A stretch of 63,858 nucleotides of DNA, the filler included, from Conidiobolus incongruus B7586 (lineage: Eukaryota), in assembly GCA_000697335.1 (NCBI GenBank). It is 34 parts of 34 records of this genome, joined end to end, with 100 filler letters (N's around TTAATTAATTAA, not from the genome) between each part and the next. Parts side by side here need not be neighbours in the genome. Positions count along the whole stretch, not along the records: positions 1 to 1,585 come from JNEM01000980.1; positions 1,686 to 2,703 come from JNEM01000981.1; positions 2,804 to 4,441 come from JNEM01000983.1; positions 4,542 to 5,962 come from JNEM01000984.1; positions 6,063 to 7,323 come from JNEM01000985.1; positions 7,424 to 9,015 come from JNEM01000986.1; positions 9,116 to 10,337 come from JNEM01000987.1; positions 10,438 to 11,700 come from JNEM01000990.1; 26 more parts are not named here. One strand, 5' to 3'. This document shows, piece after piece, positions 1-32,044 of the stretch. The first letter of the stretch is position 1; each line of letters begins with the position of its first letter. The translations under genes were made by a program, and so were the position numbers. The notes under the pieces were generated by a model. That model did no database searches. It saw only the letters and a list, made by a program, of their open reading frames with translations, and was not told the origin of the DNA.

Positions 1-1534
1 TTTAATTAATAACTAAAATAATTGTATATATTAGATTACTTGAAACTATAATATATAATTAAGGTATATCATTTGATAATAAATAAATATAATTAGATAT
101 ATTTAGTAAACTATTAGCAAAAATATTAATCTTTAATATTTAATTAAGATAAGTTATAAATTTGTAGGTTTTTGAGATAAAAGGATATATTTAACAATAT
201 TTAACTATATTTTTTTTCTCTTTTTATTATTATTTTATATAATATTTTATGGATATAGTAAATTTTTTTTATTAATATTATTATACCTAAATCCCTCTTT
301 AAAAAAATCTACTTATATATTAATTAACTTTATAAAAAAATAAATCAACTCTTGATATTATTAGAATTACTAGTGTTAGTTAGTCTACTATAGTTAAAGT
401 TATTAAGAATTATAATAAAAATACATTTAAACTTAAACTTAAACTTAAATATATTAAGATTATAAATAAATATGATAAGAAGTATATTTATAGGTTAATT
501 AATACAGGTAAATATAATATTATTATAGAAATATAACAAGAATTATAAAACTATAAAAGATTATTAATTAGCACTGATATTATTATATATATTTTATATT
601 AATATAGATATTACTTATATCTTAAGAAAAAACACCCCTAACTAAAAAAATCCTATTATAAAGCCAAATAAAAGTTTAAATATTACTATTAATATTAAAT
701 TAAAATTAATTAAAATAAAGTTATTTAGTTTAATAAAATAAAAATATATTTTAATAGATCTAATAAAAAAGTTAAATGATTTAGAAAAGATACAAAACTA
801 CTTTATAACTATTATATTAATTTTACCTAAAAATACAATGATAGGTTAATTATTATTTAAGGATATATATTATCTTTAGATATAAGATATCTTTGTAAAG
901 TTAATAAGGGAATTAATATTAGAATGTACTAAAGTATTTTAAATAATAAATTGAAAAAAACTATTGAATAATATAGGTTAAATAAATCTGAAGTTATTTT
1001 CTAATAAAATAATATTTTTTATTATATTATAACTTTTATTACCAAATAGCTTAAAAATAACAAAATAATAGTTATGAAATAGCTTCTTTAATTTTTTAAT
1101 CTTAACTTAATTAAATACTTTTAAAATTAGTTAAAAAAAGTTATTAAAGCTTTTCCCTTAATAAAAAATTTAAATTAGCTTTAATAATATATTTAAAAAG
1201 CATAAAACAAAATTAACCCCTTTTAGTATAAAAAGTTAATTGATTCTATACCCTATAAACTTAAAAAAGTTAAAAAAGTTAAAGGTAGATATAATAAGTT
1301 TCAATTTTTTTTATCACCAAAAACCTATAAATTTATAACTCATCTTAAGTAAAATTTAAAACTTTATATTTTAGCTAATTAATAACTAAATATTATCATT
1401 TAATAATATATATTATTAATAAATATAATAGATTTAATTATTTAATTTAAGTTTATTTTATTAAATATTAATTATGTTATTAGTAAAAATATAAGTATTT
1501 TTGATTTTATAATTTATTTTTATAAGTTAGTATA
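1..1534 (+). mobile_element. Tc1-like DNA transposon, dead copy (transposase relic ~283-1304)
   Basis: Colinear with other copies. Reversing C>T/G>A gives MPKSLS...W(S)DETK...FQQDNA...(SPD)LNPIEHLW...KGGYTKF. Inner inverted repeats at ~149-182 and ~1308-1345. Right end ~1532 followed by TA. Confidence 0.9.
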
Positions 1535-1585
1535 TATTAATTAAAAATTAAATAAAAATAAATCAATTTATGAAATTATTAGAAT

Positions 1586-1685
1586 NNNNNNNNNNNNNNN
1601 NNNNNNNNNNNNNNNNNNNNNNNNNNNNNTTAATTAATTAANNNNNNNNNNNNNNNNNNNNNNNNNNNNNNNNNNNNNNNNNNNN
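1586..1685. other. Artificial contig linker (44 N + TTAATTAATTAA + 44 N); first of 33 identical linkers, last at 60895-60994
   Basis: Identical 100-bp structure at every gap. TTAATTAATTAA places stop codons in all six frames. Contigs from 32145 onward are in decreasing length order. Confidence 0.98.

Positions 1686-1715
<30 letters not shown>
1686..1715. repeat. (AT)n microsatellite
   Basis: About 15 AT units at a contig start; a similar tract lies at ~35505-35529. Confidence 0.9.
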
Positions 1716-1718
<3 letters not shown>

Positions 1719-2803: not shown

Positions 2804-4439
2804 ATTTATTATTGGCTTGAAATAAATTAATATATACAAATTTAATAGGAAATTATATTTTTTTAATATATATATATAATAACTTTTTTAATTAAAAAAT
2901 TAACTTTTTCAAAATGATTGTTAAATTTAATTATATTTAAACCAAATAATAATCATCAAAGGTTTTTTATTTTAGTATTAGTAAAACTTAATTATAAACT
3001 CTCTAAAATTATTTAAAATTTATAAGTAGCTTTTAATAATATAATATTATCTGTAAATATAATGGTAAATACTGATATAGTATAGAGGAAGACTTAATAT
3101 AAAAATAGTGTGACACAAAATATAGTATTATAATATGGTTATAGTGTGCAAATATAAATAAAGTTTAATTAAACTTCAAACTGGGATGAGTCATCAATAT
3201 ATTAAGATTTATATTAGCTACTGCTAATATATTAAATATTAATAGGATATAGTCTTAATCATAAAAATATTAAGTATTGAGAGGAAAAAAAACCTAGTTT
3301 ATGAGATAATTCAATACTATTTATATAATTAATCTAGTTATAAAAGTATAAATTAATTATATAATTTATAGTTAATTGAATTATATAAAACTATATATAG
3401 GAATTTAAAGAATTAGTCTCTTAATATTATCTAAATTAACAATTTATTACTAGTTAGATTATTTTAAAGCTAGTAGAGAAATTATTTAAAACTTATTAAA
3501 ATCAAAAAAAACCAACTTTATTTGTTATTATTTTAATTATTAATAGAGTGAAAAAATATACTGAAAATCACTTTTTTATTTTAGCTAAAAAATTATCTAA
3601 GCACTTTAATATTTATTTTATAAGTATTTTAAATATATTAAATTTTAAACTCAAATTAATAAATAAAAATACAAAATAGGTACCTTATAATTTAATTCAA
3701 GCTTAGAAAAAAGCTAGAGTAGTTATTGTTAAACAAAACTTACTAAAATATCACTAAAAGCTTAAATTTTATAATAAATAATTGTAATTGATAAATCTTA
3801 AATCCTTATATATAATCCTTTACTAAAACACAAATCAAAATATTAGATTAAGCTAAATCAACCCCTTATACAAATCCCTTTAAATTAGCATTTTGTTAAT
3901 AAACAAATGTTAATTATTACAATAGATTATAATGTTATATGCTACTTTGATTTAGTTCCTGAAGGAAAATTAATTAATAATACACTTTATATTTTTTTTA
4001 AATAAAAGTATTTTTAATTAATATTCTGAATATAATTTGAGAAGACTTATTATTATATATGATAATTGTACAATATATAAATCTAAAACTGTAAAAAACT
4101 TTCTTATTAAAAATAACTAGAAAAACTACCATATCTAGTATATTCCTTAGATTATAATCTATGTGATTATAATTGCTTTAGGTAATTAAATAACTAGCTT
4201 ACAAGAAAGAAAATTTTTGCAAAAAAATTTAATTGGTTTATAAAACATTATATTTCAGTCTTTAATAAAAAGAAATAATTGTTAAGTATTTAATCTTTAT
4301 CAGAAGTATAACAAAAAGCTATTAAAAATTAAAAAAAACTATTAAATTTATATTATATATTTACTTTTATATATTATATATTAAAATATTTAATTATTTT
4401 TAATCATAAAAAATTCCTATTATTAAAAATACAGAGTAG
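2804..4439 (+). mobile_element. Mariner, dead copy, interrupted by a solo LTR
   Basis: TAG GTA CCT (W>stop, V, P of WVPHNL) at 3677; TAT GAT AAT TGT (HDNC relic) at 4058; right TIR ends 4439 followed by TA. Confidence 0.9.
3052..3426 (-). mobile_element. Solo LTR (375 bp) of the chromovirus family, inserted in a mariner
   Basis: TGTAAA...TTAA[C>T]A; reverse complement matches 8067-8463. 5-bp TSD TTATC at 3047-3051 and 3427-3431. Removing it restores the mariner frame. Confidence 0.9.
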
Positions 4440-6062
4440 TANNNNNNNNNNNNNNNNNNNNNNNNNNNNNNNNNNNNNNNNNNNNTTAATTAATTAANNN
4501 NNNNNNNNNNNNNNNNNNNNNNNNNNNNNNNNNNNNNNNNNAATTATATATTAAAAAATTATATTAAACTATGACTTGAATAGGTTTATATTATATGTAA
4601 GGTTTTTGAATCTTTTATTATATTTTATTTAATATAATTTTTCATAAAATAGAATATTTATTTGTTTCTATCCAATAATATTCAAAATATAATAATATTT
4701 AAATTATAAATGCAATATATTTTAATTAATATTCCAATTATTTCGAAAATTAATTCATTATCTAAAATTTTTTTTATATATAAATTTAAAATATTTTCAA
4801 AGTTTTAAAAATAAAAGTTCAATAGTAATTATTTTATAAAATGTCAAATTTCTATTATTATTTTACCTTGATCTATATAATAACCATTATTTAGTAATAT
4901 AATAAATCTATATTATCTCGTAAAATAAGCCATAAAATTAAAATCGTATATATTTTTAGTAAAAATTTAATTAAGTTCAATTAATTTATTATAAACGATT
5001 CTGTTAATATATGTTATATCTTTTAATAGAATATTTTGAGTTTAATTAACTATTTAGTGATGAATTAAAATTAAAAATATAATTACAAACAGTTATAAAC
5101 TTAATTTATTATTTTTAACTATAATAAAAGAATTTAAACTTATTTTATTAATGTTTTATTTTTCTTATTTTTCATTTAATAGGATATAAAGTCAACTAGA
5201 ATTTTATAATAATCAAGACTAATCTTAATAGAGCTTCTTAAATATATGTTTAGGTTTCTTTTAAATTTTATTAAATGAAAAACTTTATATTTTTAATATT
5301 TTTCCAAAGATATTTAACTATATTTAGGTCAAGAAATAACAAAACAGTTTGTAATGATTATTTTATTAATTTTAAACCATTTGACAATAAAAATTATAAA
5401 ATAGCAAAAGATTTTATATTATTATCAAACTATGTTTAATTTATTTAGATTATATTATATTATAGATTTGAATTCATTTTGTAAAATTTTTTACTATATT
5501 TAAATATTGATTTCTTTAATAATTTTATAAAAACATCATATATTCATAAAAGATAAATACTCTAAAGCTATAATTAATTTAATATAATTTTTTTTAAATA
5601 GCAAAATAACTTTTAAAATAACTTATTATCTTATTTAAAATATTTTACTCTTTTATCAAAATTATTTAATTATTTATTTATTAAATTATATGATTAGATT
5701 AAATAGCTTTAATTATTTTTAATTTAATTTTAATTAAAAAATTTAAACTTTTATTTCAGCTTATAATAAGACTTTTTGGATTATAAATATTTTTTATAAT
5801 ATAGGTGATATTTGTTCTAATATAGAATATATTTAATAATATTGATATTAATTAATATTTTATAAAATCTTATAATTTCTATTATATTTTTATAATAATA
5901 TTATATTTCCTTCTATTTTTTATCTATTCTATCTATATTTTATTATATTTATACATAATTATNNNNNNNNNNNNNNNNNNNNNNNNNNNNNNNNNNNNNN
6001 NNNNNNTTAATTAATTAANNNNNNNNNNNNNNNNNNNNNNNNNNNNNNNNNNNNNNNNNNNN

Positions 6063-7320
6063 TTAGTATTATTATACTTAAATCTCTCTCTAAAAAAATT
6101 TATTTGTATATCAATTAACTTTATAAAGAAAATAAATTAACTTATGATATTATAGAAATTACTAGTGTTAGTTAGTTTATTATAATTAATGTTATTAAGA
6201 ATAACAATAAAAACACATTTAAAATTAATCTTAAGTGTGTTAAAATTATAAATAAACCTGATAAGAAGTATATTCATAGGTTAATTACTATAGTTAAATA
6301 TAATATTATTATAAAAATATAACAAGAATTATAAGACTATAAAAGAATATTAGTTAATATTAATACTATTATATATATTTTATATTAGCATAAACACTAT
6401 TTATATTTTAAGAAATAACACCCTCAACTAAAAAAATCCTATTAAAAGTTAAACAAGAGTATAAATGTTGATATTAATATTAAACTAAAATTAATTAGAG
6501 TAAGGTTATTTAATTTAATAAAATAAAAATATTTTTTAGTTAATCTAATAAAGAAGTTAAATACTTTAAAAAAGATATAGAATTATTTTATAACTATTAT
6601 GTTAATTTTACCAAAAAAATAATAATATATTAAATATTGTTTTGGGATATGTATTATTTTTAAATATAAAGTATCTTTGTAAAGTTAATAAGGGAATTAA
6701 TATTAAAATATACTAAAGTATTTTAAATAATAAATTGAAAAAAACTATTGAATATTATAAGTTAAATAAATTTAATATTATTTTCTAGTAAGATAATACC
6801 TCTTATTATATTATAACTTCTATTATTAAATAGCTTAAAAATAACAAAATAATAATTATAAAGTGGTTTTTTTAATTTCTTAATTTTAACCTAATTAAAC
6901 ACTTTTAGGATCAGTTAAAAAAAGTTATTAAAGCTTTCCCCCTAGCAAAAGATTTAAATTAACTTTATAAATATATTTAAAAAATATAAAACAAGTTTAA
7001 CTTTTCTTAGTATAAGAAGTTAATTAACTTTATACCTTATAAACTTAAAAAATTTAGAAAAGTTAAAGGTAGATATATTAAGTTTTAATTTTTTTTATCA
7101 CCAAAAACTTATAAATTTATTACTTACTTTAAGTAAAATCTAAAGGTTTTGATTTTAACTAATTAATAGCTAAATATCATTATTTAATTATATAAAATAT
7201 TAATAAATATAATAGATTTTAATGATTTAATTTAAGTTTATTTTTATTAGATATTAATTAAGTTATAAGTAAAAATATAAATGTTTTTGATTTTTTAATT
7301 TACTTTTATAGGTTATTATA
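6063..7320 (+). mobile_element. Tc1-like transposon, dead copy
   Basis: Aligns along its length to 275-1534. TTCTAGTAAGATAATACC at ~6782 is the FQQDNA relic. CTAATTAAACACTTTTAGGATCAG at ~6892 is the PIEHLWDQ relic. Confidence 0.9.
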
Positions 7321-7423
7321 TAANNNNNNNNNNNNNNNNNNNNNNNNNNNNNNNNNNNNNNNNNNNNTTAATTAATTAANNNNNNNNNNNNNNNNNNNNN
7401 NNNNNNNNNNNNNNNNNNNNNNN

Positions 7424-8463
7424 TTTAATTTAATAATTACTCTAAAATTTTAAATCAATTTACTTTTAAATATTGTTGAATTTTAATCTAATATTAAATA
7501 TATTAATTCCTTTATTAAATTTAACTTAGAAGAGAATTAAAAAATTATAGAATAATAATACTTAAAGTTATTTAAAAACCCTGTTAAATATAAAGCTAAT
7601 ATGTTTGTATATTTAAAACAATTTACTTTTAAACTTGCCTTATTTAAATCTAGCTTAAATCTTAAATATTTACTATTATATTATAATCCTTATTAAATTT
7701 AATTTATTGATTTAAATTTTAAAAATATTATTTTAGAATTACTTTTAATTTTAAAAATTAACTTTACTTTTTATATATTTAAAATTAAACTATACTTTAA
7801 AAATTTTAATATTTTTCTTATTTAATTAAAATCTTTAAAATTAGATTTAATTATTAATTAAAATAAAAAAGAAAAATACTATGTTAATTATATAATTAAA
7901 TTTAAATTTATTAGGAATAAACTTTATTTTTATATAAAATAAATAGGTTATTTTATTAAAGAAGTTATATAAAAACTTTTAAAATATATTAAGAATATCT
8001 TAACTTATTATACTTATTTGTAAAAATTTAAGGAGTATATTTTTTTCAAAAAACCTATTAGGGAAGTATTAAAAGACTAAATCCTTAAATTCTTATATAT
8101 ATATTTTTTATAAATCAATTAATTATAAATTATATGACTAATTTATATTTTTATAATTAAATTAATTATGTAAATAATATTAAATTTTTATTAAATTAAA
8201 TTCTTCTTTTTCTTTCAATTGTTATTATTTTTTATCTTTTATATTATTTTAAAGATTAAGATTATATTTTATTAATATTATTGGATATTAGCACTTTGTA
8301 ATATAAGTCTTAATATATCAATAACTTATCCCAGTTTGAAGCTTAATTAAACTTTTTTTCATATTTCATATTATATTCCATATTATATTATTATATTCTA
8401 TACCACACTATCTTTAAGTCTATATCTATACTATATTAGTAATCTTTTACTATTATATTTACA
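7424..8463 (+). mobile_element. Ty3/Gypsy chromovirus 3' end: integrase C-terminus, chromodomain relic, PPT and 3' LTR (8067-8463)
   Basis: Colinear with the 15656 copy. Purine tract AGGGAAG at 8060-8066, then LTR T[G>A]TTAA...TTTACA. Confidence 0.85.
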
Positions 8464-10437
8464 AAAGCCTAGCTTATATCTTATTATAGATTTTAAATCC
8501 TTATTAAAAAAGTTTAAAATAAATAAAAAATCATATAATATTAAATATTACTTGTTTAAGTATAAAGGTAAAATAATGTCACTTATTTTAATCTTATTAG
8601 ATATAAATTTACCAAACAGCTAATAATATATTATATTTAATTTTTTTATATTTAAAAAACAAGTTTATATTATTGAATTTTATAATAGTCAATATGGTTT
8701 ATTAATAAAGATTTTAATATTATATTTATATTATAGTTTTAAAAAAATTTGATATCTTATTATATGTTAGATAATAAAAAATTAATAGTTAAATTATAAT
8801 AAATTTAAGAGGTTTGCTAAAGAAAAATAATATCTTTAAATTAAATAATAATGAATACCTAGATTTTGAAAATTAAAGTTATCTATTTTTTTAAAAAATA
8901 AATAATTATATATTTGATTATTATATATTTAATAATTATTAATAAATGGATTAATAAGGAAAATAAATTGCAATATTTTAATAAATAAAAAAATTTGACT
9001 TATTTAAAAAGACTTNNNNNNNNNNNNNNNNNNNNNNNNNNNNNNNNNNNNNNNNNNNNTTAATTAATTAANNNNNNNNNNNNNNNNNNNNNNNNNNNNN
9101 NNNNNNNNNNNNNNNATGTTTTAATTCAGTTTTTTAAAATTAATTAAATATATAAATTTAAAAAATTAATATTAAAACAAAATTGTTAATGATCCTCACT
9201 AATCAATATATTTTATAATATTCTGATTATAATATTTATTTTTAGTATATTTATTTGATATTGAACTCTCTCAAATTTCAGATATTATTAAAATGTATGA
9301 AATATTTCAAACTAATGTAATTAATTTTATATATAACTATTACAAGTAAACTAAAGATTCATATTTCAAAAATATAAATATAGGTTTTAAATATTACTTT
9401 ATGTTTTTATATTTTAAATTCAAAAGAAATCTAGAGTATATTTTTATCTTTATAACTTGTACAAAGAGTTAATCTATTATTTTATTTTTGGATTTCAAAA
9501 TTTAATTATAGTAAACAATAATAATATAATTATAACAGAAAATATATAATGAAATAAAATTATTGAAAAAAAAAAACTGAAATTATTAAAACTTTGATAT
9601 TGAATTTTATAATGAAATTGTTATTTTATATTTCAATTTATATATTGAAATATTAATAAAAAATATATCATTACTAAATTAATTTTCTTTATTCTAATTT
9701 ATAAGAATCTCAAAAAAATTAATAAAATATTAATTAAACTTATATTTGATTCAAAACATAATATTCAAATCATATTTTGAATTTTGTTTAAATAATATAT
9801 TGTCATATACACTGAAAATACTATATTTCAATTTTATAAAAAAATTTTTTGGATTATTTTTCAAATATTGAATATTTTATTATGAAATTATTTCTCATTT
9901 AGAATTAAATTATAAAAATATATTAACACTTGATGAAACACAAAATAATAATGATTTTCTTCAATAGTACAAAAAATAATTTATAGAATAAAATTTTATT
10001 AATAAAAAATTTGTTGATTTAAAATTTATGATTCAAAAATCTAATTAATTGAATAATAATAATATAATTTAATAAATAATAATTTTTATTATAAAAATTT
10101 TTAGTTTTTAATTCTGGTTTATATTAAAAATTTAATTTTTTTTCTTGATAGAATTTTTGATTGTGTTAAATTATTTCAAATAATATCAGAATTATTCATT
10201 TTATATTTCAAATTAATTTTAATTAATAAATTAACTCAAATTTTTAATATAATAATACAAAGAATATAAAAACTTGTAGAGAAATTATAAATTATATTTT
10301 TTTATCTATATTTTTGTTAATATATTATATTATCAAANNNNNNNNNNNNNNNNNNNNNNNNNNNNNNNNNNNNNNNNNNNNTTAATTAATTAANNNNNNN
10401 NNNNNNNNNNNNNNNNNNNNNNNNNNNNNNNNNNNNN

Positions 10438-11700
10438 AATTAAAATATTAACAAATATGTTTATAAAATATTTAGTTAAAATAAACAATAAGGTAATAGT
10501 TAAAGGTAAAGAATTTTAAAATAAATTAATTACTTAAATATTTTTAGTTTCTAATAATTTAATTATTTAAATCTCTTTAGTATATATAGCTTGATTTATA
10601 GAATCATTAGTTTATTAAAATTTTTGTAAATTAAATTAAAATTTATTAATTAATTATGAAAAAAGTATTTTAAAGTTATATTAATATTATTCAAGTTTAA
10701 TTTGTAATTAATAGATTAAAACTATTAAGAATTAAATAAATATTGTTTTTTAAAAAAATACTTATTAATTTTATAATTAATTTAAATTTTTTAATAATAA
10801 TAACCATTTTTATTTATTTTTAAATAAGCTTTAACTTCTTAATTAAAAGTTTTCTTATAAAGCTTTAAAGCAGAAATATTTATTATTTAAGATTTAAGTA
10901 GGTTAAAGTAAGTTTTAAAAGATTAATTTTTAAAATAAAAAGATTTAATTATAAAATAAAAGATGCCATTAATCATAATTACTATATTATAAATGTTAAA
11001 AAACATATTATTAAAATAATCCCTATTAATTAACTAAAGTTTTACTTTAAGATTAAAGTATTATAATAACTTATAGATTTATTTTTCTTTAGTAATATTT
11101 AAAATATTTAAATATATCTTATTAAATTTCTTAATTAATTACATTATAAAAGGTTTGTATTTAAGTTAAGAAAGTTTTTCTCATATTAATTAAACTTAAT
11201 TTTTTAAGTAATATATTTTTTTAAAATTTTTTTCTAACTATTTAAAGGTTTAAATTTTTATAATAAGTTATCCTTTTAAAGATTTTTTAAGATTAAGTTT
11301 GTAATTGGTTAATTATTAAGTGTAAATAGATTTTTCCAAAAAAATTGTTAATTTAAAGATATTCTTTAAATTTTCATTAAAAATTAAAATATATAATTTT
11401 TTATATTTTTAAAATAATTTTCAAGCTTATAAAAGTTTTTAAAACTATTATAAATGGTTAATTTATTTTTAAAAATATTAAGTAAGTGATTTAATATATC
11501 AATAATAATGAAATAATTAGTTTATTAGATTTAAACTTTTTAGGTTATATTTTTCTCAATAATAAATTATTTAATATAAGCTTTTAAAGAGTAAAGTTTT
11601 AGATTTATTTAATAATTAGGCTATTATTATTATTAAAATAATATAAAGGTATTTTTTTAATAATATTATAGTATATAATATTAAATTTAAATAAATTAAA
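10438..11700 (-). mobile_element. Possible hypermutated retrotransposon gag region
   Basis: Same CpG/CpA-stripped texture as the TE copies. Minus strand has faint gag-like (FLNL.QT) and zinc-knuckle-like relics. No second copy here to confirm. Confidence 0.3.
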
Positions 11701-11800
11701 NNNNNNNNNNNNNNNNNNNNNNNNNNNNNNNNNNNNNNNNNNNNTTAATTAATTAANNNNNNNNNNNNNNNNNNNNNNNNNNNNNNNNNNNNNNNNNNNN

Positions 11801-14350: not shown

Positions 14351-14941
14351 AATAAAAATCAATTATAATAATATTAAAATAATATATAAAATANNNNNNN
14401 NNNNNNNNNNNNNNNNNNNNNNNNNNNNNNNNNNNNNTTAATTAATTAANNNNNNNNNNNNNNNNNNNNNNNNNNNNNNNNNNNNNNNNNNNNAATTAAT
14501 AAATCAATTATATTTGAAATAACTTTTTATTAGATAATATAAAAAATATAGATAATTTAAATAATATATTTTTAATTTTTAATAATTCTATCTAACTGAA
14601 TTTATTTTTTTATAATATATAAAGTTTTGATATTTTATTTAAATAAACTATAAATTTAAAAAAGTTTATTATAATCAGAGAATTGAAAGTTAATATATTT
14701 ATATTATTTTTTGTAATTTTTCTAAAATAATAGGTTATAGAGTTAATTTGCTATTTATATATAGAAAGAATAACTTATCATAAATTTTGTAAATATATTT
14801 TTCAAGTTATTCTATTTATTATAATATAAGATAAATTTTATTTTAATTTAACTATTTTGAAAAGTAATTATTTGGGTTATAATTGAAAAATTAAAAATAA
14901 TACTATAAAATTATTATCTTTTAAAGCTTTATATTATATAA

Positions 14942-19538: not shown

Positions 19539-20561
19539 TATTATAATTAAGGCTATTATTAATAATATAAAAAAATCATATAAATTTAAACTTAAGTATA
19601 CCTAGATTATAGATATATTAATTAAGATATATATTTATAAATGAAATAATATAGGTAAATATAATATTATTATAAAAATAAAAATAAATTATAAGTCTGT
19701 ATAGGATTATTAGTTAATATTAATACTATTTTATATGTTTTATATTAGAATAGATATAACTTATATCATAAGAAAAAAACCAAAAATAATAAAAATTATT
19801 ATTATAAAACAAAATTAAATGTTAAAATCATTATTAATATTAAAATTAATTAAAATAAGGATATTAAATATTATAAAACAGAATATATTTTGATAAATTT
19901 GATAAACAATTATATATTAAGAAGTGATAAAAATTACTTTATAATTATTATATTTTAATAAGCCAAAAATATAATATAAATTAATTATAATTAAATATAT
20001 ATATTATCTTTAAATATATAATATTAAAAAATGATCAATAATCAAATTAATAATAAATTATATTAAAATAATCTAAAATATGAATTAAAAGTCATTAAAT
20101 AATATAAATGAAATAAATTAAAAATTATTTTAACAAAATACTGCCTTTTTTTACTATAGCTCATATTATTATAGGTCTGGAAAATAATAAAATATTAATT
20201 ATAAAATAATTTCTTCAATTTCCAAATTATAATTTAACTAAATAACTGTAGAATCAATTAAAAAAATTCATTAAATCTTTCCTTTTAATAAAATATTTTG
20301 ATTAAGTTTAAATATATATTCAAGAAAATAAAAAAAATATTTATCTTATATAATATAAAAAGTTAACTAATTTTATATCCTAAAAATTTATAAATATTAG
20401 AAAAATAAAGAATAAATATATTGAATATTAATTTTTCTATTAATACTAAAATTTTTAAATTTATGAACTATATTAAATATATTTATAACTTTAATATATT
20501 AATTAATATTTAATTAAATTTAACTTTATAAATTCTATTTGAAATAAAAAATAATAATAAA
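19539..20561 (+). mobile_element. Tc1-like transposon, strongly diverged dead copy
   Basis: Recognisably colinear with the other Tc1 copies but more degraded. The 3' flank resembles the 24571 copy. Confidence 0.75.
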
Positions 20562-20720
20562 NNNNNNNNNNNNNNNNNNNNNNNNNNNNNNNNNNNNNNN
20601 NNNNNTTAATTAATTAANNNNNNNNNNNNNNNNNNNNNNNNNNNNNNNNNNNNNNNNNNNNTTATTTTAATTATTTTTTAATATCTATAATATTATTATT
20701 AAGTTTAATAATATCTTTTA

Positions 20721-21927
20721 TTATCTTGAATTTAAAATAATGATAAAATTTTAATTTTGATTTTTTGAATATATTATTAATTTTAAATAAATAAATATAT
20801 ATAAAATAAATAGGATATTATATTTTTTTGATGATATATATATATATCATAATGATTTTAAATAATGATTAACTTTTTAAAATTAGTTTTTTAATTTAAT
20901 TAATTTTAAACCTAATAATAATCATATAAAGTCTTTTATTTTGATATCAGTAAAACTTAATTATAAACCTTTAAAAATTATATAAAATATACAAATAGCT
21001 TTTGATAATGAAATATTATATAAATCAATAATTTATTATTGGGTAAATTACTTTTAAAATGGGAAAAATTTTTCTAAAATCAATTAAAATCTAAAAAACT
21101 AATTTTAACTCAGACTATTTTAATTATTAACTAAGTCAAAAAATATATCAAAAAATACCCTTTTATTTTAGCTAAAGAATTATCTAAAAATTTTGATATT
21201 AGTTTTATAAGTAATATATATATATTAAAGTATAATCTTTAATTAATATATAAATATATTAAATAGGTATTTTATAACTTAACTAAAGCTCAGAAAAAAG
21301 CTAAAATAGTTATTTCTACACAGAAGTTAATAAAATATTTCCAGAAACCTAGACTTTTGCAACAAATAATTATAATTGATGAATCTTAAGTCCATTTATA
21401 TAATCCTTTACCAAGATATAAATCAAAATACTGGATTAAATTAAATTTACCTTTTTTGCAGATTCTTTTAAAAAAATATTTTGTTAATAACTAAATATTA
21501 ATTTTTGCAATGGATTAATTTTATATAATATTATTATTTAGTTCCCAAAGAAAAATCAATTAATAATAAGCTTTATATTGATATTTTAAATAAAGTTTTT
21601 TCAAATTGATATTCTTAATATAAATTAAAAATATCTATTATTTTATTTGATAATTATAAAATATAAAAATCTAAAGTTATAAAAAATCTTCTAATTAAAA
21701 ATAACTGGAAAAAATATCATATCTATTATACTCCCCAAATTGTAATCTATATGATTATAATTACTTTAGGTAATTAAAAAACCAAATTTCAAAAAAGAAA
21801 ATTTTTGCATAAAAATTTAATTAGTTTGTAGAATATTAAATTTCAATCTTTTATAAAAGAAATTATTTTTAGATATTAGATGTTTACTAAATATATAGTA
21901 AAAAAATTATTAATAATAATATAAAAT
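20721..21927 (+). mobile_element. Mariner, dead copy with left TIR
   Basis: TA followed by TTATCTTGAATTTAAAATAATG at 20721; GAT GAA TCT at ~21378; TAC TCC CCA (YSP) at 21729. Confidence 0.9.
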
Positions 21928-22027: not shown

Positions 22028-23212
22028 AGTAAGCTTCTAATATTAAAAAATAGATTTTTTTATTAAAGACTGAAATTTAATATTTTACAAACTAATTTAA
22101 TTTGTTTGCAGGAATTTTTTTTCCTGTAAGCTTTTTTTTTAATTGTCTAAAACAATTATAATTATATTGGTTATAATTAAGTGAAAATATTTGATATGAT
22201 TACTCTCTTTATTTTTTTTATATAAAAAATCCTTTGTAGCTTTAATTATATATATTTTATAATTATTATATAAAATAATAGGTGTTTTTAATTTATATTG
22301 AAAACACCATTTAGAAATCATTTTATTTCAAAAGATAATATATAATTTACTAATAATTGATTTTCCTTAAGATATTAAATAGGAAAATTATATATTATAA
22401 TAATTTATTAAAATAATTAATATTTATTTATAATTATAATATTTGTTTATTAAAATTTATAAATAGGATTGATTTAACTTAACATTTTGTTTTATTTTTA
22501 AATTAAGGATTATATAAAAAAAATCTAAGATTAATCAATTATAAGTATTAGATATAAAAACCTTTGTTTTTGGTTATACCTTAATAAATTTAGTTTAGCT
22601 ACAGCTATTTTAGTTTTCTTTTAGGTATTTGTTAAATTATAAGATATCCACTTTATATTTTTATTAATTGATTTAAGTTTAAACTTAAGTAAATATATAA
22701 TATTTATATAATTAATATTAAATTGTTTTAATAGTTCTTTAACAAAAATAAAAGCATATTTCTTAATATATTTTTTACTCTATTAATAAATGAAAAAATA
22801 ATAGTAAAAATTAATCTTTTAAATTTTGATAAACTTTAAATAATGTCTTTTTTAGCTGTAAAATCATAAATCCAGCAATATATGGTAGTTTTAGATAAAG
22901 CATTATTTTTATAAACTGTTTGCAAGTTTTAGATGATTTTAGAGGGTTTATGGTTAAATTTTAAAGATACAAAAATAAAAGCCTTTTAATAATTATAATC
23001 TAATTTAAGCAAGATTAAATTTAAGCATAAATTTTAAAATCAAAATATTTTAATAAAAAAAATAATTAAAATTAAATATATATATATATATAGTTTGAAA
23101 AAATCTTTTTTTATATATTTTATTTATAAAAAATCTTTCAAAATATATAATATATTTAAAAGATCAGAGACTAAAAAATTTGCTATTTTTTTAATTTCTA
23201 TACTAATAACTA
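22028..23212 (-). mobile_element. Mariner, diverged dead copy
   Basis: Reverse complement colinear with the family but with more transversions (distinct subfamily). Confidence 0.85.
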
Positions 23213-23312: not shown

Positions 23313-24470
23313 ATATATATTATTAAATAATGATATTTAGCTATTAATTAGTTAAAATATAAACCTTTAAATTTTATTTAAAATAAGTTATTAATTTATA
23401 GGTTTTTAGTGATAAAGAAAATTAAAACTTAATATATTTATCTTTAGCTTTTTTAACTTTTTTAAGTTTGTGGTGTATAAAATCAACTAATTTCTTATAT
23501 TAAGAAATGTTAATCTTATTCTATACTTCTTAAATATATTTTTAAAGTTGATTTAAATTTTTTGTTAGGGGTAAAGCTTTAATAACTTTTTTTAACTAAT
23601 CTTAAAAGTATTTAATTAAATTAAAGTTAAGAAATTAAAGAAGCTACTTTATAATTATTATTTTATTATTTTTAAACTATTTAGTAATAAAAGCTATAAT
23701 ATAACAAGAGGTATTATCTTATTAGAAAATAATATTAGATTTATTTAACTTATATTATTTAATGGTTTTTTTTAATTCATTGTTTAAAATACTTTAGTAT
23801 ATCTTAACATTAATTCCCTAATTAACTTTATAAAGATACCTTACATCTAAAAACAATATATATCCTTAAATAATAATTAACTTATTATTATACTTTTAGG
23901 TAAAATTAATATAATAGTCATAAAATAATTATATATCTTTTTTAAAATATCTAGCTTTTCTATTAAATTTACTAAAGTATATTTTTATTTCATTAAATTA
24001 AATAACCTTATTCAAATTAGTTTTAATTTATTATAAATAGCAATATTTAAATTCTTGCTTAATTTTATAATAAGATTTCTTTAATTAAAGGTATTTTTTT
24101 AAGGTATGAATAGTATCTATATTAATATAAAATATATATAATAATATTAGTGTTAACTAATATTCTTATATAGTTTAATAATTCCTGCTATATTTTTATA
24201 ATAATATTATATTTATTTGTATTAACTAACTTATAAATATATTTCTAATTATATTTATTTATAATTTTAACATGCTTAAGTTTAAGTTTAAATATTTCTT
24301 TATTATTATTTTTAACAATTTTAACTATAGTAAACTAATTAACACTAGTAATTCTAACAATATTATAAGTTGATTTATCTTTTTTATTTAGTTAATTAAT
24401 ACATAAATAAATCTTTTTAAAGAGTGATTTAAACATAATAATAATAATAATAAAAAATTTAATATATCTA
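23313..24470 (-). mobile_element. Tc1-like transposon, dead copy
   Basis: Reverse complement aligns to 250-1410. Confidence 0.9.
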
Positions 24471-24570: not shown

Positions 24571-25712
24571 TCTTAAAAAAGTTTATTTATATATTAATTA
24601 ATTTTATAATAAAAATAAATCTATTTATGAAATTTCTAAAATTATTAATATTATATAATCTATTATAATTAAGGTTATTAAAAACAATATTAATAGAATA
24701 TTCAAATTATTACTTAAGTATAATAAGGTTATATATCATTATGATAAAAAATATATTGATAGATTAATTAAAATAAATTAATATTATTATAGAGATATAA
24801 AAAAAATTTTAAGGTTTTAAAAAAAATATTAGCTAATATAAATACTATTATATATTTTTTATATTAAAATAAATATTTCTTATATTATAAAAAACACCCT
24901 TAATTAAGGAAATCCTATTATAAAATTAAACAAAAGTTTCAATATCATTATTAAAATTAAATTAAAACAAATTAAAACAAGCTTATTTAATTTAATAAAA
25001 TAAATATATTTTAATAATTTCAACAAAACATTAGATAATTTACAAAAGATAAAAAAATATTTTATAACTATGATTTTATTAAAACCCATAAATATAATAA
25101 TAGGTTAATTATAATTTAAGGATATATATTATCTTTAGATATAAAATATCTTTATAAAATTAATAAAGGAATTAATCTTAATTTATACTAAAGTATTTTA
25201 AATAATAAATTTAAAATACTATTAAATAACATAAGTTAAATAAATTAAACATTATTTTCTGACATGATAATATATATTTTTAATGGCAAATTTTGTTATT
25301 AAATAGTTTAAAAATAATAAAACAATTATAATAAAATAACCTCCTTAATTTTTTAATTTTAACCTAATTAAATATTTTTAAAATGAATTAAAGAAATCAT
25401 TTAAAGTTTTCCCTTTGACAAAATATTTAAATTAATTTCAAAGTATATCTAAGAATCATAAAATAATATTAGTTTTGTTTAATTTAAAAGCCTAATTAAC
25501 TTTATATCCTATAAACTTAAAATAATTAAAAAACAAAAAATAGATATATTAGAAATTAATTTTTCTATTAATACTAAAACCTACAGATTTATTATTTATT
25601 TTAAATATATTTTTATTCTTAATATATTAATTAATAATCTATTAAATTTAACTTTTATATTATATTGAAAGAAAAAATATATATTAATTAAATAGTGTAA
25701 TATAAGTTTATT
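24571..25712 (+). mobile_element. Tc1-like transposon, diverged dead copy
   Basis: Colinear with the family; KKHP relic AAAAAACACCCT at ~24889-24900. Confidence 0.85.
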
Positions 25713-25812: not shown

Positions 25813-26980
25813 AAGATTTTTAGAATTACTAATGTTAGTTAGTTTATTATAGCTAAAGTTATTAAAAATTATAATAAAGATATATCTAAACTTAAATTTA
25901 AGTATATTAAGATTATTGATAAATATAATAAAAGATATATTTATAAGTTAGTTAATATAAGTCAATATAATATTATTGTAACAATATAAAAAAATTACAA
26001 GACTATATATAATATTAATTAATATTAATCCTATTATATATTTTATATTTTAATAGATATCACTTGTATTTTAAGAAAAAACACTTTTAAATAAAAAAGT
26101 CATATTATAAAGCTAAATAAAAGTTTAAATATTACCATTAAAATTGAATTATAACTAATTAGAATAAAGTTATTTAATTTAATAAAACAAAAATATACCT
26201 TTGTAGATCTAATAAAAAAACTAAATATTTCAGAAAAAACAAAGAATTACTTTATAAATATCATGCTATTTTAACCTAAATATATAATGATAGGTTAATT
26301 ATAATTTAAAAAAATATGTTATCTTTTGGTATAAGGTATTTTTATAAAGTTAATAAAGGAATTAAGATTGAGATATATTAAAATATTTTAAACAATAAAT
26401 ATAAAAAAACTATTGAATAATATAGGTTAAATAAATCAAATATTATTTTCCAACAAGATAATACCTTTTATTATACTATTATTTCTATTTCCAAATGGTT
26501 TAAAAATAATAAAATAATATTTATAAAATAGCTTTTTTAATCCTTTAACCTTAATCTAATTAAACATCTTTAGAATTAGTTAAAAAAATAATTAAAACTT
26601 TTTTATCAATAAAAGATTTAAATAAGATTTAAAAAAATATTTAAGAAACTTAAAACAAAATTAGTCTTTTTTAATATAAAAGGTTAATTAACATTATATC
26701 CTATAAATTTAAGGAAATTAGAAAAGCAAAAGATAGATATATTAAGTTTTAATTTTTTTTATAACTAAAACACACAGATTTATAACTTATCATAGGTAAA
26801 ATTTAAATTTGAATATATCAACTAAAAGTTAATATAATTGGATCAATTATATTTAATTATAAATAAATAATATAAGTTTATTATATACTGTATTTTAAAT
26901 TAATTTAATTAAGAATTAACAAAATTATTGATAAGAGTATATATATTTATAATTTTATGACTTATTTTTATAGGCTAATA
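25813..26980 (+). mobile_element. Tc1-like transposon, dead copy (second subfamily)
   Basis: Retains TTC CAA CAA GAT AAT (FQQDN) at 26448-26462. Right terminal repeat TTATGACTTATTTTTATAGGCTAATA at ~26955-26980. Confidence 0.9.
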
Positions 26981-27246
26981 TATATTAATAATTTTTGTCA
27001 TTAATTGCTTAAAAAATTAAAAATATAATCTCTAATATAATATTTTATCTATTATTTAACTTTTATATAAAACAATAAAAAATATCAAAAATTATATTTA
27101 AAAAATAATATTATTAATTGTAAAAGATTTTTAAACTTTATTTTAANNNNNNNNNNNNNNNNNNNNNNNNNNNNNNNNNNNNNNNNNNNNTTAATTAATT
27201 AANNNNNNNNNNNNNNNNNNNNNNNNNNNNNNNNNNNNNNNNNNNN

Positions 27247-28276
27247 AAAGTCTTTTATTTTAATATTAATAAAACTTAACTATAAACTCTCTAAAATTAT
27301 TTAAAATTTATAAATAACTTTTAGTAATAAATTATTATTTCAATCAATAGTTTATTATTAGGTATATAATTTTAAAATTAAATAAAACTTTTTAAAACCT
27401 ATAAAAATCTATAAAATTAATTTTAATTATCACTTTATTAATTATTAATAGAGTGAAAAAATTTATACATAACTATCTTTTTATTTTAATTAAAGAATTA
27501 TCTAAATATTATATTATTAGCTTTATAAGTATTTTATATATATTAAAGTTTAAACTAAAATTAATAAATTAAAAAATAAAATAGATAGCTTATAATTTAA
27601 TTAAAGTTTAAAATAAGTTAAAATAGCTATTGTTAAATATAACTTATTAAAATATTACCTGAAATATTAAATTTTGCAATATATAATCATAGTTGATAAA
27701 TCTTAAATCATTTATATAATCCTCTTTAAAAAATAAATCAAAGTGTTAAATTAAGTTAAATTAACCACTTTTATAAATCTTTTTAAATTAATCTTTTATT
27801 AATAAGCAAATATTAATTATTATAATGAACTATAATAATATATATTACTTTTATTTAGTTTTAAAGGAAAATCAATTAATAATAAGCTTTATATTCTTTT
27901 TTTAAATAAAATTATCTCTAGTTAATATTTTTAATATTATTTAAACAAACTTATTATTTTGCATGAAAATTATAAAATATATAAATCTAAAGTTATTAGA
28001 AATTTTCTGATTAAAAATAACTAAAAAAAACTACCATATCTAGTATATTTTTTGGATTATAATATATATGATTATAATTGCTTTAGGTAATTAAAAAACC
28101 AGCTTACAAGAAAGAAAGTTTTTATAAGAAAATTTCATTAGTTTATAAAATATTAAATTTTAATATTTAATAAAAAATACTTTTTTTAAATATTAGAAGT
28201 TTATTAAAAATATTATTAAAAATTATAAATAATAAAGAAAATTAATAAATCTATATTATATTTTAATTTTTATATA
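27247..28276 (+). mobile_element. Mariner, dead copy
   Basis: Colinear with the 16992 copy. Confidence 0.9.
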
Positions 28277-29580
28277 NNNNNNNNNNNNNNNNNNNNNNNN
28301 NNNNNNNNNNNNNNNNNNNNTTAATTAATTAANNNNNNNNNNNNNNNNNNNNNNNNNNNNNNNNNNNNNNNNNNNNAATCAATCTGAATATATATGGATA
28401 ATATAATATTTTATAAAGTACTTTATTTATTGATTAATAATTATAAATCAGTTTAATATTCTGCTATAAGAAACTTTTATAATAATATAACAGTTGTTAT
28501 TTAATATTTAGGATGATTCCTAAATATTAAAATTATTTATAATTTAAAATCTTAAGATTTTATTACCCTATAAATAAGCTCCCATTATTTTAGAGTTAAA
28601 AATTAAATAATAAATAATTATAATCTCAATTATTATTTATTTTTACAATTTATTTGTTTATTATAATATATAAACTATTGTTTTTTAATGTATTTTACAA
28701 TTTTATTTTATCGTCAAAAATCTGATATTTTGAATTTTGAAATAATCATTAAATTAATGATATTAATTCCCAAAATTATAATTAGTTATTTATTTAATAA
28801 TTATTGGAAAGTGATATTATCTATACATTATCATTATTTTTATATTTTTTTAAGTCAGGAAGGAGTTTTTAAATTAATTTGCTTAGAAGTAATAATATAT
28901 TATTATTTAATCGATATATATATACATAATTAAAATTGATTAAATAATTCATAAAATACTGAAATGCTATGGATATATTTTAATTTAAGAATTACTTAAA
29001 CATTGGAAATCTGATATTGAATTGAAAATTTATTTCCAAATATCAATAGTATTTGATACTAAATATTTCACTAAATACTTTACTAATTATTATATATATA
29101 TTAATTATTATTATTCGAAACTTTTATGACGTAAATTTTCATAGTTAGAATTTGATTATTATATTTATTAATTTTGACAATGAATACTAATTAATTTTAA
29201 GAACTTATATTAATACTAAAATAAACTATATATATTAGTACTTTCTATTCTTTTATATAAACTATATAATGAATTGTATTTTAGAACAGAATAAATTATA
29301 GCCAGAATATTAAATAATTAGATAAAAATCTTAGAATAATTATTTTCAACTTAATATAATAAATACAAAATTTATTTGCATTATATTAATCCATAATTGA
29401 ATTTGTCTCCATTGGAAATATTCCTTTACTAAATATATTTTCACTTTTATTTAATAATAAAAGTTAATAATAAAATTATANNNNNNNNNNNNNNNNNNNN
29501 NNNNNNNNNNNNNNNNNNNNNNNNTTAATTAATTAANNNNNNNNNNNNNNNNNNNNNNNNNNNNNNNNNNNNNNNNNNNN

Positions 29581-29676
29581 ATATAATTTTTTAATAATAA
29601 TTTTAATTACAGGTGTTTTTTCTTAAAATATAAGTAGTATCTATATTAATATAAAATATATATAATAATATTAATA
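29581..29676 (-). mobile_element. Internal fragment of a Tc1-like copy that was the target of a second Tc1 copy
   Basis: Matches internal transposase sequence (compare 30545-30636) and ends abruptly at a TA abutting the terminal repeat of the next copy. Confidence 0.8.
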
Positions 29677-30732
29677 TAATAACTTGTAAAAATAAGTTAT
29701 ACAATCAAAAACACTTATTTTTTTACTAATAACTTAATTAATATACAATAAAATAAACCTAAATTAAATAATTAAACTCTATTATATTTATTAATTATAT
29801 ATATCATTAAATGATAATATTTAGCTATTAATTAGCTAAAATATAAATCCTTAAATTTTACCTAGGGTAAGTTATAAATTTATAGGTTTTTGGTGATAAA
29901 AAAAATTAAAACATAGTATATCTACCTTTAGCTTTTCTAACTTCTTTAAATTTGTAAGGTATAGAATTAATTAACTTCTTACACTAAAAGAAGTTAATTT
30001 TATTCTATGCTTCTTGAATATATTTTTAAAGTTAATTTAAATTTTTTGTTAGGGGGAAAGCTTTAATAACTTTTTTTAACTAATCCTAAAAGTATTTAAA
30101 TAGATTAAAGTTAAAAGTTTGAAAAAGCTACTTTATAACTATTATCTTATTATTTTTAAGCTCTTTGATAATAGAAACTATAATATAACAAAAAGCATCA
30201 TCTTATTAAAAAATAATATTAGATTTATTTAACTTATATTTTTTAATAATGTTTTTCAATTCATTATTTAGAATATTTTAATATATTTTAATATTAATTC
30301 CTCTATTAACTTTATAAAGATACCTTACACTTAAAGATAATATATATTTTTAAACAATAATTAACTTATTATTATATTTTTGGGTAAAATTAACATAATA
30401 GTTACAAAGTAGATCTATATCTTTTCTAAAGCATTTAGCTTTTTTATTAAATCTACTAAAATATATTTTTGTTTTATTAAACTAAATAACCTTATTCTAA
30501 TTAATTTTAGTTTAATATTAATATTGACATTTAAACTCCTATTTAATTTTACAATAGGATTTTTTTAGTTAAAAGTATTTTTTTAAAATCTCAGTAGAAT
30601 CTATATTAATATAAAGTATATATAATAATATTAATGCTAACTAATATTCTTATATAGTTTTATAATTCCTGTTATATTTTTATACTAATACTATATTTAC
30701 TTATATTAACTAACCTATAAACATACTTCTTA
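29677..30732 (-). mobile_element. Tc1-like transposon, dead copy (right end plus most of the transposase)
   Basis: Begins with terminal repeat TAATAACTTGTAAAAATAAGTTATACAATCAAAAACAC. Reverse complement aligns to the family. Confidence 0.9.
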
Positions 30733-30832
30733 NNNNNNNNNNNNNNNNNNNNNNNNNNNNNNNNNNNNNNNNNNNNTTAATTAATTAANNNNNNNNNNNN
30801 NNNNNNNNNNNNNNNNNNNNNNNNNNNNNNNN

Positions 30833-32044
30833 ATAATATTAGTATTAAAATACCTAAATCCCTTTTTAAAAAGATTTACTTATATATTAATTAACTTTAT
30901 AGTAAAGGTAAATTAACTTATAAGATTGCTGGAATTATTAGTGTTAGCTAGTTTACTATAGTTAAAGCTATTAAAAATTATGGTAAAGATATATTTAAAC
31001 TTAAATTTAAGTGTGTTAAGATTATAAATAAATATAATAAAAGGTATATTTATAGGTTAGTTAATATAAGTAAGTGTAATATTATTATAGAAGTATAGAA
31101 AAAAATATAAGACTATATAAGAATATTAGTTAGTACTAATACTATTATACATACTTTATATTATAATAAATATCACTTGTACTTTAAGAAAAAACACCCC
31201 CAATTAAAGAAGTTTTATTGTAAAGCTAAACAAGAGTTTAAATATCACTATTAAAGTTGAATTAAAACTAATAAAAGTAAGGTTATTTAGTTTAATAAAA
31301 CAAAAATATACCTTAATAAATCTAATGGAAAAGCTAAATATTTTAAAAAAAAAACAAAGAATTACTTTATAACCATTATGTTATTTTAACCCAAAAATAT
31401 AATAATAGGTTAATTATAGTTTAGGGATATATATTACCTTTTAATATAAAATATCTTTGTAAAATTGATAGGGAAATTAATATTAAAATATATTAAAATA
31501 TTTTAAATAATAAATTAAAAAAAATTATTAAATAATATAGATTAAATAAATCAGATGTTATTTTCTAACAAGATAAAACTTGTTGTTATATTATTATTTC
31601 TATTACCAAATAGTTTAAAAATAATAAAATAATATTTATAAAGTGGTATTTTTTAATCTTTTAATTTTAATCTAATTAAATACCTTTAGGATTAGTTAAA
31701 AAAATAGTTAAAGCTTTTTTATCAGTAAAAAATTTAAATAAGCTTTAAAAATATATTTAAGAAGCTTAGAATAAAATTAATCTTTTTTAATATAAGAAGT
31801 TAGTTGATTTTATACCTTATAAACTTAAAGAAATTAAGAAAGTAAAAGATAGATATATTAAGTTTTAATTTTCTTTTTATAACTAAAATACACAAATTTA
31901 TAACTCACTTGAGGTAAAATTTAAATTTTAATTTATCAACTAAAAATTAATATAATTGGTTTAAATATACTTAATTATAAATGAATAATATAAGTTTATT
32001 ATATATTTTAATTTAAATTAATTTAATTAAAAATTAATAGAGAT
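30833..32044 (+). mobile_element. Tc1-like transposon, dead copy (second subfamily)
   Basis: ATACCTAAATCC start relic at 30850; AAGAAAAAACACCCCCAA (KKKHPQ) at ~31186. 3' flank shared with the 25813 copy. Confidence 0.9.

What the first reader, a model, noticed from the sequence alone, without database searches (positions are those of the whole stretch)
1..32044. RIP-like repeat hypermutation in an apparently non-Dikarya fungus
Seen: about 20 copies of three unrelated TE families stay colinear with few indels, yet differ overwhelmingly by C/T and G/A changes, with different sites hit in each copy. The Tc1 FQQDNA codons read TTCCAACAAGATAATACC (26448), TTCTAGTAAGATAATACC (~6782) and TTCTAATAAAATAATATT (999). 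Trp TGG becomes TAG, TGA or TAA; Gln CAA becomes TAA. CpG is essentially absent and CpA/TpG is strongly depleted, while CpT/ApG and C runs survive best. Single-copy genes in the same window keep abundant CpG and CpA. Established: this pattern defines repeat-induced point mutation, characterised in filamentous ascomycetes (RID/DIM-2 dependent), with RIP-like signatures also in some basidiomycetes. Inference: VMA3 ([18 protein letters not shown]) looks zygomycete-like, so this may be a homology-dependent mutagenic defence in a lineage where it is not established, possibly with different enzymes.
Basis: partly seen in the sequence, partly recalled or inferred. Interest (0 to 1): 0.9.

Follow-up and report, generated by a model that had tools for sequence, protein, structure and literature searches.

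The report
RIP-like transposon mutagenesis in zygomycete fungus
Dead transposon copies in a likely zygomycete fungus carry a heavy load of C-to-T changes that its unique DNA lacks, likely from a repeat-targeting defence resembling the repeat-induced point mutation known mainly from sac fungi.

Summary
The pattern is real. The window is 34 separate contigs holding 20 alignable copies of a Tc1, a mariner-like and a probable Ty3 family. Against an intact Tc1 relative, 1331 of 1857 traceable C/G positions changed by transition, versus 35 of 2009 A/T positions. CpG is gone (0 of 101), CpA 87% changed, CpT 56-71%, CpC about half. GC-matched unique DNA keeps CpA (o/e 1.09 versus 0.64), so general AT bias and CpG-only decay fail. 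Young and old copies keep the same share of CpA (29/219, 13/95): the damage comes early, then largely stops. VMA3 groups with Basidiobolus and Entomophthorales; Dikarya is rejected (p 0.004). It works like RIP. Membership is unproven: enzymes, pairing and sexual timing were untestable, no strand-coordinated clusters were found, and lightly mutated copies may be hidden by assembly. RIP in Entomophthorales was suggested in print from indices only, and a kingdom-wide screen scored 8 of 8 Zoopagomycota negative. This scan noted a like pattern before in two other early-diverging fungal genomes (unchecked here).

The parts
1..1585 (+). Family A (Tc1) copy, near complete; long inverted repeats at about 14-225 and 1264-1479; youngest class
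   Evidence: tblastn to P0158 E 7e-35; inverted arms 67% alike; 155 of 216 traceable C/G changed by transition, 4 of 233 A/T changed
6063..7323 (+). Family A (Tc1) copy
19539..20561 (+). Family A (Tc1) copy, old (10% transversions at conserved codon positions)
23313..24470 (-). Family A (Tc1) copy, young
24571..25712 (+). Family A (Tc1) copy, other subfamily
   Evidence: 28 shared derived transversions with 19539-20561
25813..27146 (+). Family A (Tc1) copy with the FQQDN motif at 26448
29581..30732 (-). Family A (Tc1) copy, young
30833..32044 (+). Family A (Tc1) copy, young
   Evidence: 141 of 216 C/G transitions, 1 transversion
4757..5960 (-). Old Tc1 relic, 66-70% like family A; has regained a few CpG
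14594..14920 (-). Short Tc1 relic beside unmutated unique DNA
58019..60894 (.). Family A copy (58039-58316 and 59575-60894, +) interrupted by a family B copy (58270-59597, -)
   Evidence: self-BLAST
3423..4441 (+). Family B (mariner-like) copy abutting a family C piece
11801..12983 (+). Family B (mariner-like) copy
   Evidence: weak Pfam HTH_48, E 0.033, below cut-off
13084..14393 (-). Family B copy
16992..18221 (+). Family B copy; its core was laid on the runs
   Evidence: weak Pfam Transposase_1, E 0.036, below cut-off; 11,382 contigs of run X1 lie on 951 bases
20662..21927 (+). Family B copy
22028..23212 (-). Family B copy, old
27247..28276 (+). Family B copy
35196..35540 (+). Old family B relic at the end of a mostly unique contig
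51906..52984 (+). Old family B relic (63% alike) next to unique DNA; 2 CpG
7424..8470 (+). Family C copy: probable 3' end of a chromodomain-bearing Ty3 element (by eye, motif recalled; no database hit)
   Evidence: no hit
15656..16770 (+). Family C copy
18322..19438 (+). Family C copy
3052..3439 (-). Family C terminal piece (probable LTR)
38674..38994 (-). Family C terminal piece (probable LTR) beside unique, gene-like DNA; as mutated as the others
   Evidence: 22 of 43 C/G transitions, 0 transversions
10438..11700 (.). Unassigned contig with the same signature (0 CpG, CpA o/e 0.51); no partner in the window
56058..56558 (+). VMA3, V-ATPase c subunit, intronless; taxonomic marker and unmutated control (16 CpG)
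39422..40198 (-). Ceramidase gene; unmutated control (22 CpG, GC4 0.35)

Best explanation
The transposon copies carry a repeat-restricted C-to-T load on both strands that was likely laid down early, by an active repeat-targeting mutator of the RIP kind, likely driven by a cytosine methyltransferase, in a likely Entomophthoromycotina fungus. Shown: the changes run C to T; rates rank CpG >= CpA > CpT > CpC with no 5' preference; copies are hit largely independently; unique DNA is spared; about 1.2 hits per site are present at the youngest ages seen. Inferred: new copies are recognised as repeats; a DIM-2/DNMT1-like or RID-like enzyme methylates or deaminates their cytosines over several rounds; the process fades once copies drop to about 80% identity; thereafter they decay at the genome's ordinary AT-biased rate. 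Whether recognition is by DNA pairing in a sexual or resting-spore stage, or by chromatin or small RNA in mitosis, is open (my split of the 0.68: about 0.3 and 0.38).
For: Polarity: 221 of 333 codons aligned to intact P0158 are explained by its residue plus only C>T/G>A; reverse polarity explains 74, no change 57. Size: four youngest Tc1 copies show 574 transitions and 10 transversions at 826 C/G positions, 10 and 5 at 893 A/T positions, about 100-fold. Context: CpA 422/483, CpT 287/407, CpC 250/482, CpG kept 0/101; 5' base 0.48-0.53. Plateau: CpA kept 29/219 in four young and 13/95 in two copies about ten times older; a clock predicts none left. The age slope alone (6.0 +- 2.1) predicts equilibrium GC 0.11 (0.09-0.15), like the AT-rich unique DNA (0.10-0.13 blocks; 0.175 overall), so the intercept 1.2 +- 0.08 is an extra component. 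Run-wide: 158 of 182 variable places in run X1 are transitions. Both DNA transposons and the probable retroelement are hit. Host: clade with Basidiobolus and Entomophthorales 96/85; Dikarya rejected.
Against: No strand-coordinated clusters: same-strand correlation at most 0.022; strand heterogeneity p 0.015 (A), 0.15 (B), 0.85 (C). Load does rise with age (Spearman 0.65, p 0.005, 17 copies). Only copies diverged enough to assemble as 1-kb contigs are visible. At the 22 listed T>C/A>G places 76-96% of summed depth in X1 keeps the C or G, more than the assembled copies do; depth sums favour shared words and 164 rows were cut, but a pool of lightly mutated copies is not excluded. The order CpG >= CpA > CpT > CpC also fits methylation preferences (recalled). 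The codon-anchored set dropped 112 of 333 codons and selects against transversions; CpT is inflated by misassigned residues (16 of 49 sites never keep the C; stricter sets 0.56-0.66). The age proxy includes some pre-insertion divergence. The plateau test rests on one family. Placement rests on one 166-residue gene; Mucoromycota is not rejected (p 0.10). No enzyme was seen.
Confidence: 0.68

Rival explanations
1. Passive deamination of dense all-context 5-methylcytosine: copies are silenced by methylation, mutate spontaneously, and the methylation fades as CpG and homology are lost. No dedicated mutator.
For: CpG is fastest (about 4.5 hits per strand, range 2.2 upward, versus 2.1 at CpA). Mutations are spatially independent. 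Load rises with age. 5mC sits on repeats in Rhizopus (PMC12019607, passages); Dim-2 is reported in early-diverging fungi (PMC7862722, passages).
Against: About 100-fold excess over other changes, in non-CpG contexts, exceeds the roughly tenfold effect usually quoted for methyl-CpG (recalled). CpA plateau at 13%. Early-diverging fungi are described as having near-undetectable 5mC (PMC13297926, passage).
Confidence: 0.2
2. The TE contigs belong to another organism in the sample, such as a Pezizomycotina contaminant with ordinary RIP.
For: No contig joins a TE copy to VMA3 or the ceramidase. All four holder runs are one sample.
Against: The same runs hold the VMA3 contig (0.72-0.94 of words) and 11,382-14,313 contigs of family B. 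B and C pieces sit in contigs whose unique parts have the same composition as the gene contigs. CpG loss is total and CpT/CpC loss heavy, unlike the CpA-dominated RIP described in PMC2621366 (Background).
Confidence: 0.05
3. A cytidine deaminase (APOBEC/AID-like) edits single-stranded transposition intermediates.
For: Would give an early burst and a plateau.
Against: Both strands are hit about equally in every copy; cut-and-paste elements are hit as hard as the probable retroelement; the preference is for the 3' base, none for the 5' base, whereas such deaminases read the 5' base (recalled).
Confidence: 0.05
4. General GC-to-AT mutation bias acting on dead, unselected TE copies.
For: Unique non-coding DNA is very AT-rich (GC 0.175); the slow age-dependent part of the load fits this bias.
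Against: GC-matched unique DNA keeps CpA and CpG. If all C-to-T change were clock-like, equilibrium GC would be 0.017. C>A is not raised.
Confidence: 0.02

Closest known systems
Repeat-induced point mutation (RIP) of Neurospora crassa and other Pezizomycotina (RID, DIM-2)
   Same: C:G to T:A on both strands, confined to repeats, CpA strongly hit, positive composite RIP index (0.44 versus -0.49 in GC-matched unique DNA), copies stalled near 70-86% identity.
   Different: Host outside Dikarya; CpG at least as fast as CpA and CpT/CpC heavily hit; no strand-coordinated clusters seen; pairing, timing and enzymes untested.
Dim2-dependent mitotic C-to-T mutator of Zymoseptoria tritici (PMC8016269; abstract and section 11 read)
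   Same: Repeat-restricted, transitions far above background, CpA targeted.
   Different: There over 98% of transitions are at CpA and CpG is spared; here CpG is wholly lost and CpT, CpC are hit too.
RIP-index signal in Zoophthora radicans and other Entomophthorales (PMC11105155; passages read)
   Same: Likely the same subphylum; suggests C-to-T defence outside Dikarya; methyltransferases with RID-like domain layout reported there.
   Different: That evidence is a dinucleotide index over windows with stated caveats; here copies are aligned, polarised with an intact relative, and split by context and age.
RIP-like signatures in Basidiomycota (Microbotryum; cited in PMC2621366 and PMC13297926, sections read)
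   Same: [quoted passage not shown]
   Different: Those are Dikarya and CpG-centred (TpCpG, recalled); here there is no 5' preference and strong non-CpG loss.

Membership tests
RIP | C:G to T:A transitions far above other changes | tested here: met
   About 100-fold in four young Tc1 copies; polarity fixed with P0158
RIP | Confined to repeated DNA | tested here: met
   TE versus GC-matched unique DNA and ORFs; sharp edge at 14920/14944
RIP | 3' dinucleotide preference, usually CpA | tested here: met
   CpA 87% > CpT > CpC; CpG at least as high, so the preference is broader than in Neurospora
RIP | Many mutations per event, clustered on one strand (recalled feature) | tested here: inconclusive
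   No clear clusters; copies near saturation would blur them
RIP | Needs partners over about 80% identity and 400 bp (PMC2621366) | tested here: inconclusive
   Plateau of CpA loss and copies at 70-86% identity fit; no length test possible on contig ends; assembly bias
RIP | Acts between mating and meiosis by pairwise homology recognition | not testable with these tools
   Needs progeny sequencing
RIP | Depends on RID/Masc1 or DIM-2 | not testable with these tools
   No genome held
Passive methyl-CpG decay | Excess confined to CpG | tested here: not met
   CpA 422/483, CpT 287/407, CpC 250/482
Plant-type CHG maintenance | Symmetric CHG preferred | tested here: not met
   CAG 0.62 and CTG 0.54 like other contexts; no coupling of the two strands, p 0.75
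Tc1 (family A) | HTH_Tnp_Tc3_2 plus DDE_3 transposase with inverted ends | tested here: met
   Through the intact relative P0158; inverted arms
mariner (family B) | HTH_48 and Transposase_1 domains | tested here: inconclusive
   Both hit below cut-off, E about 0.03; no intact relative found
Chromodomain Ty3 (family C) | Integrase end with chromodomain, then LTR | tested here: inconclusive
   Motif seen by eye in codon columns (motif recalled); no Pfam or PDB hit
Entomophthoromycotina host | Groups with Basidiobolus and Entomophthorales | tested here: inconclusive
   VMA3 96/85, SH 93; Dikarya rejected, Mucoromycota not; one gene

The most novel reading that the evidence does not exclude
Zoopagomycota possess true homology-sensing RIP, acting in zygospores or resting spores with a broad CpG/CpA-first enzyme. 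RIP would then either predate the split of terrestrial fungi or have arisen twice, and it would help explain this genome's extreme AT content.
Probability: 0.3. Interest if true: 0.9.

Novelty: new variant of a known kind. Interest (0 to 1): 0.72.

Why it matters
RIP is treated as an ascomycete, at most Dikarya, trait. A 1,239-genome screen found its signature only in ascomycetes and scored 8 of 8 Zoopagomycota 'no_rip' (PMC12543289: abstract, sections 8 and 9, supplement file 12 rows). Alignment-level evidence of a front-loaded, repeat-restricted mutator outside Dikarya bears on when RIP arose, whether it needs RID, and whether a mitotic form exists. It also suggests that k-mer screens miss it in very AT-rich genomes whose repeats barely assemble. 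It is testable by long reads, a methylome and progeny sequencing.

Tried and rejected
No whole genome is held, so no search for RID, DIM-2, DNMT1, DNMT5 or deaminases. The run-wide check covers family B only; nothing was laid on family A. No RNA holder was listed. The one metagenome scan, with P0038, returned 80 loci at 62-76% identity and not its own contig; none was used. Cluster look-ups gave no organism names. No intact relative of family B (0 of 7986 candidates). Family C: no hit in Pfam or PDB. Rfam and ARAGORN: nothing. The repeat finder gave only AT-rich chance pairs. A copies-only reconstruction underestimates the load (CpA 0.61, CpT 0.49, CpC 0.36) because fully mutated sites vanish; it was replaced by the codon-anchored count. 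One search had a double-counted denominator and was redone. Depth versus number of C/G targets (rho -0.42) cannot decide whether intact copies exist. A library artefact such as bisulfite or damage was rejected: genes in the same runs keep their cytosines. The ceramidase was useless for placement (36 hits; one at 81%, one short at 48%, the rest 24-39%). Bewick 2019 and Gladyshev 2017 were not held. Supplement files 13-19 of PMC12543289 and three oversize tables were not searched; they may list Rid1/Dim2 presence in Zoopagomycota.
Full report
WHAT THE WINDOW IS. It is a composite of 34 contigs of 1.0-3.4 kb separated by N spacers; no whole genome is held. Self-BLAST gives three families: A, 9 copies; B, 8; C, 3, plus older relics and terminal pieces. 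A profile of two A copies found an intact 338-residue protein, P0158 (E 6.5e-29), with HTH_Tnp_Tc3_2 and DDE_3: A is Tc1. B has two sub-threshold mariner hits. C looks by eye like a chromodomain Ty3 end; that motif is recalled and no database confirmed it.

OBSERVATION. The three quoted motifs are present. In raw pairwise counts transitions are 60-71% of differences; the closest pairs reach 138:25 and 110:22. TE copies have 1 CpG in 24.6 kb, CpA o/e 0.64 (0.60-0.68) and composite RIP index 0.44. Unique non-ORF blocks of like GC have CpG 0.46, CpA 1.09 (1.04-1.13), index -0.49; fourfold sites of four ORFs keep GC 0.19-0.35.

POLARITY AND SIZE. 221 of 333 codons aligned to P0158 are explained by its residue plus only C>T/G>A, against 74 for the reverse and 57 for no change; 112 were dropped from later counts. 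At forced positions in nine copies, 1331 of 1857 C/G changed by transition and 53 by transversion; of 2009 A/T, 35 and 50. In the four youngest copies C-to-T hits exceed T-to-C or C transversions about 100-fold.

CONTEXT. CpA 422 of 483, CpT 287 of 407 (0.56-0.66 in stricter sets), CpC 250 of 482; at 12 forced CpG sites 0 of 101 keep CG, 80 read TA. A two-step model puts CpG near 4.5 hits per strand (2.2 upward) against 2.1 for CpA. There is no 5' preference and no CHG symmetry. The copies-only estimate for A and B gives the same order at lower values.

TIMING. Hits per site rise with transversion age (slope 6.0 +- 2.1) from an intercept of 1.2 +- 0.08. The slope alone predicts equilibrium GC 0.11, like the AT-rich unique DNA; all change on a clock would predict 0.017. 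CpA survival is 29 of 219 in young and 13 of 95 in two old copies, and the survivors in old copies are ordinary sites, kept in 0-3 other copies. This is the best evidence for an early, self-limiting process. Against it: the test rests on one family; the age proxy holds some pre-insertion divergence; only diverged copies assemble; and no one-strand clusters are seen.

RUN-WIDE CHECK. Four runs of one sample hold the VMA3 contig. Three were laid on 951 bases of family B: 11,382, 11,534 and 14,313 contigs; 158 of 182, 165 of 190 and 172 of 198 variable places are transitions. This sample may be the window's source, so it is not independent support. Summed depth keeps the C or G at 76-96% at the 22 listed T>C/A>G places, so lightly mutated copies may exist.

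HOST. VMA3 is 85% and 82% like Basidiobolus, 79% Neoconidiobolus. A 54-protein tree puts it with Basidiobolus and Entomophthorales at 96/85. On 28 proteins, AU tests reject Pezizomycotina (p 0.00095), Basidiomycota (0.0044) and Dikarya (0.0045), but not Mucoromycota (0.10) or Basidiobolus (0.42). No contig links VMA3 to a TE; B and C pieces do sit in contigs with the same unique-DNA composition.

MECHANISM. Most likely an active, methyltransferase-linked mutator that targets repeats soon after insertion and fades as they diverge (0.68; pairing-based about 0.3, chromatin- or RNA-guided mitotic about 0.38). Passive decay of all-context 5mC is the main rival (0.2). Contaminant RIP (0.05), deaminase editing (0.05) and general bias (0.02) fit poorly. 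The mutation pattern is shown; recognition, enzyme and life-cycle stage are inferred.

WHAT IS KNOWN. RIP's defining features are from PMC2621366 (Background read) and PMC13297926 (passages and section 2.1). [quoted passage not shown] PMC12543289 (abstract, passages, sections 8-9, supplement rows) finds the signature only in ascomycetes and scores 8 of 8 Zoopagomycota and the 22 Mucoromycota rows shown as no_rip. PMC8016269 (abstract, section 11) shows a mitotic Dim2-linked CpA mutator. PMC7862722, PMC12019607 and bioRxiv 2023.01.30.526367 were read in passages. Seven searches listed no alignment-based report of RIP-like mutation in Zoopagomycota; most hits were seen as listings only, and subscription journals are not covered. 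Earlier notes of this scan report a CpG/CpA-focused mariner relic in a Dimargaritales fungus and CpG-to-TpA decay of LTRs in another early-diverging fungus; I did not check them.

VERDICT. Observation confirmed with corrections; interpretation partly supported. It works like RIP; no RIP feature tested here failed, but the defining ones (pairing, sexual timing, RID/DIM-2) were untestable. New variant of a known kind; interest 0.72. Most novel reading, true RIP in Zoopagomycota: probability 0.3, interest 0.9.

Noticed in passing
window 1-63858: The window is 34 contigs joined by N44-TTAATTAATTAA-N44 spacers; adjacency across spacers means nothing.
   Followed up: yes
window 14944-15380: A GC 0.34 stretch with intact CpG and CpA directly beside a Tc1 relic; no long ORF, no Rfam hit. 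Unexplained; shows no spreading of the mutation here.
   Followed up: partly
P0158 cluster: An intact Tc1 transposase in 14 unnamed Logan/JGI records explains 221 of 333 family A codons, so the ancestral enzyme was about two-thirds like it; its host is unknown, horizontal transfer possible.
   Followed up: no
window 39422-40198: Intronless ceramidase with no close named fungal hit: 81% to one unnamed metagenome protein, 24-34% over most of the length to the rest, many of them animal.
   Followed up: partly
window 58019-60894 and 2804-4441: Family B sits inside a family A copy and abuts a family C piece; the nested B copy has the lowest load of its family (0.28-0.33).
   Followed up: partly
window 4757-5960 and 51906-52984: The oldest relics carry 3 and 2 CpG again and CpA o/e 0.76 and 0.96, as expected if targeting stops and ordinary mutation resumes.
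   Followed up: partly
window 9116-10337: Contig with 0 CpG, 0 GpC, CpC o/e 0.61 but CpA 1.31: a different compositional oddity, unexplained.
   Followed up: no
window 45974-46399 (-): 142-residue ORF with a signal-peptide-like start and no Pfam hit.
   Followed up: no
runs X5-X7: Added for the same species label as X1 yet hold next to none of the VMA3 contig's words; X5 has no family B contig laid. A label mismatch is possible.
   Followed up: no
family A and B alignments: A/T swaps are the commonest other change (156 and 183 singletons versus 149 and 137 T>C).
   Followed up: no
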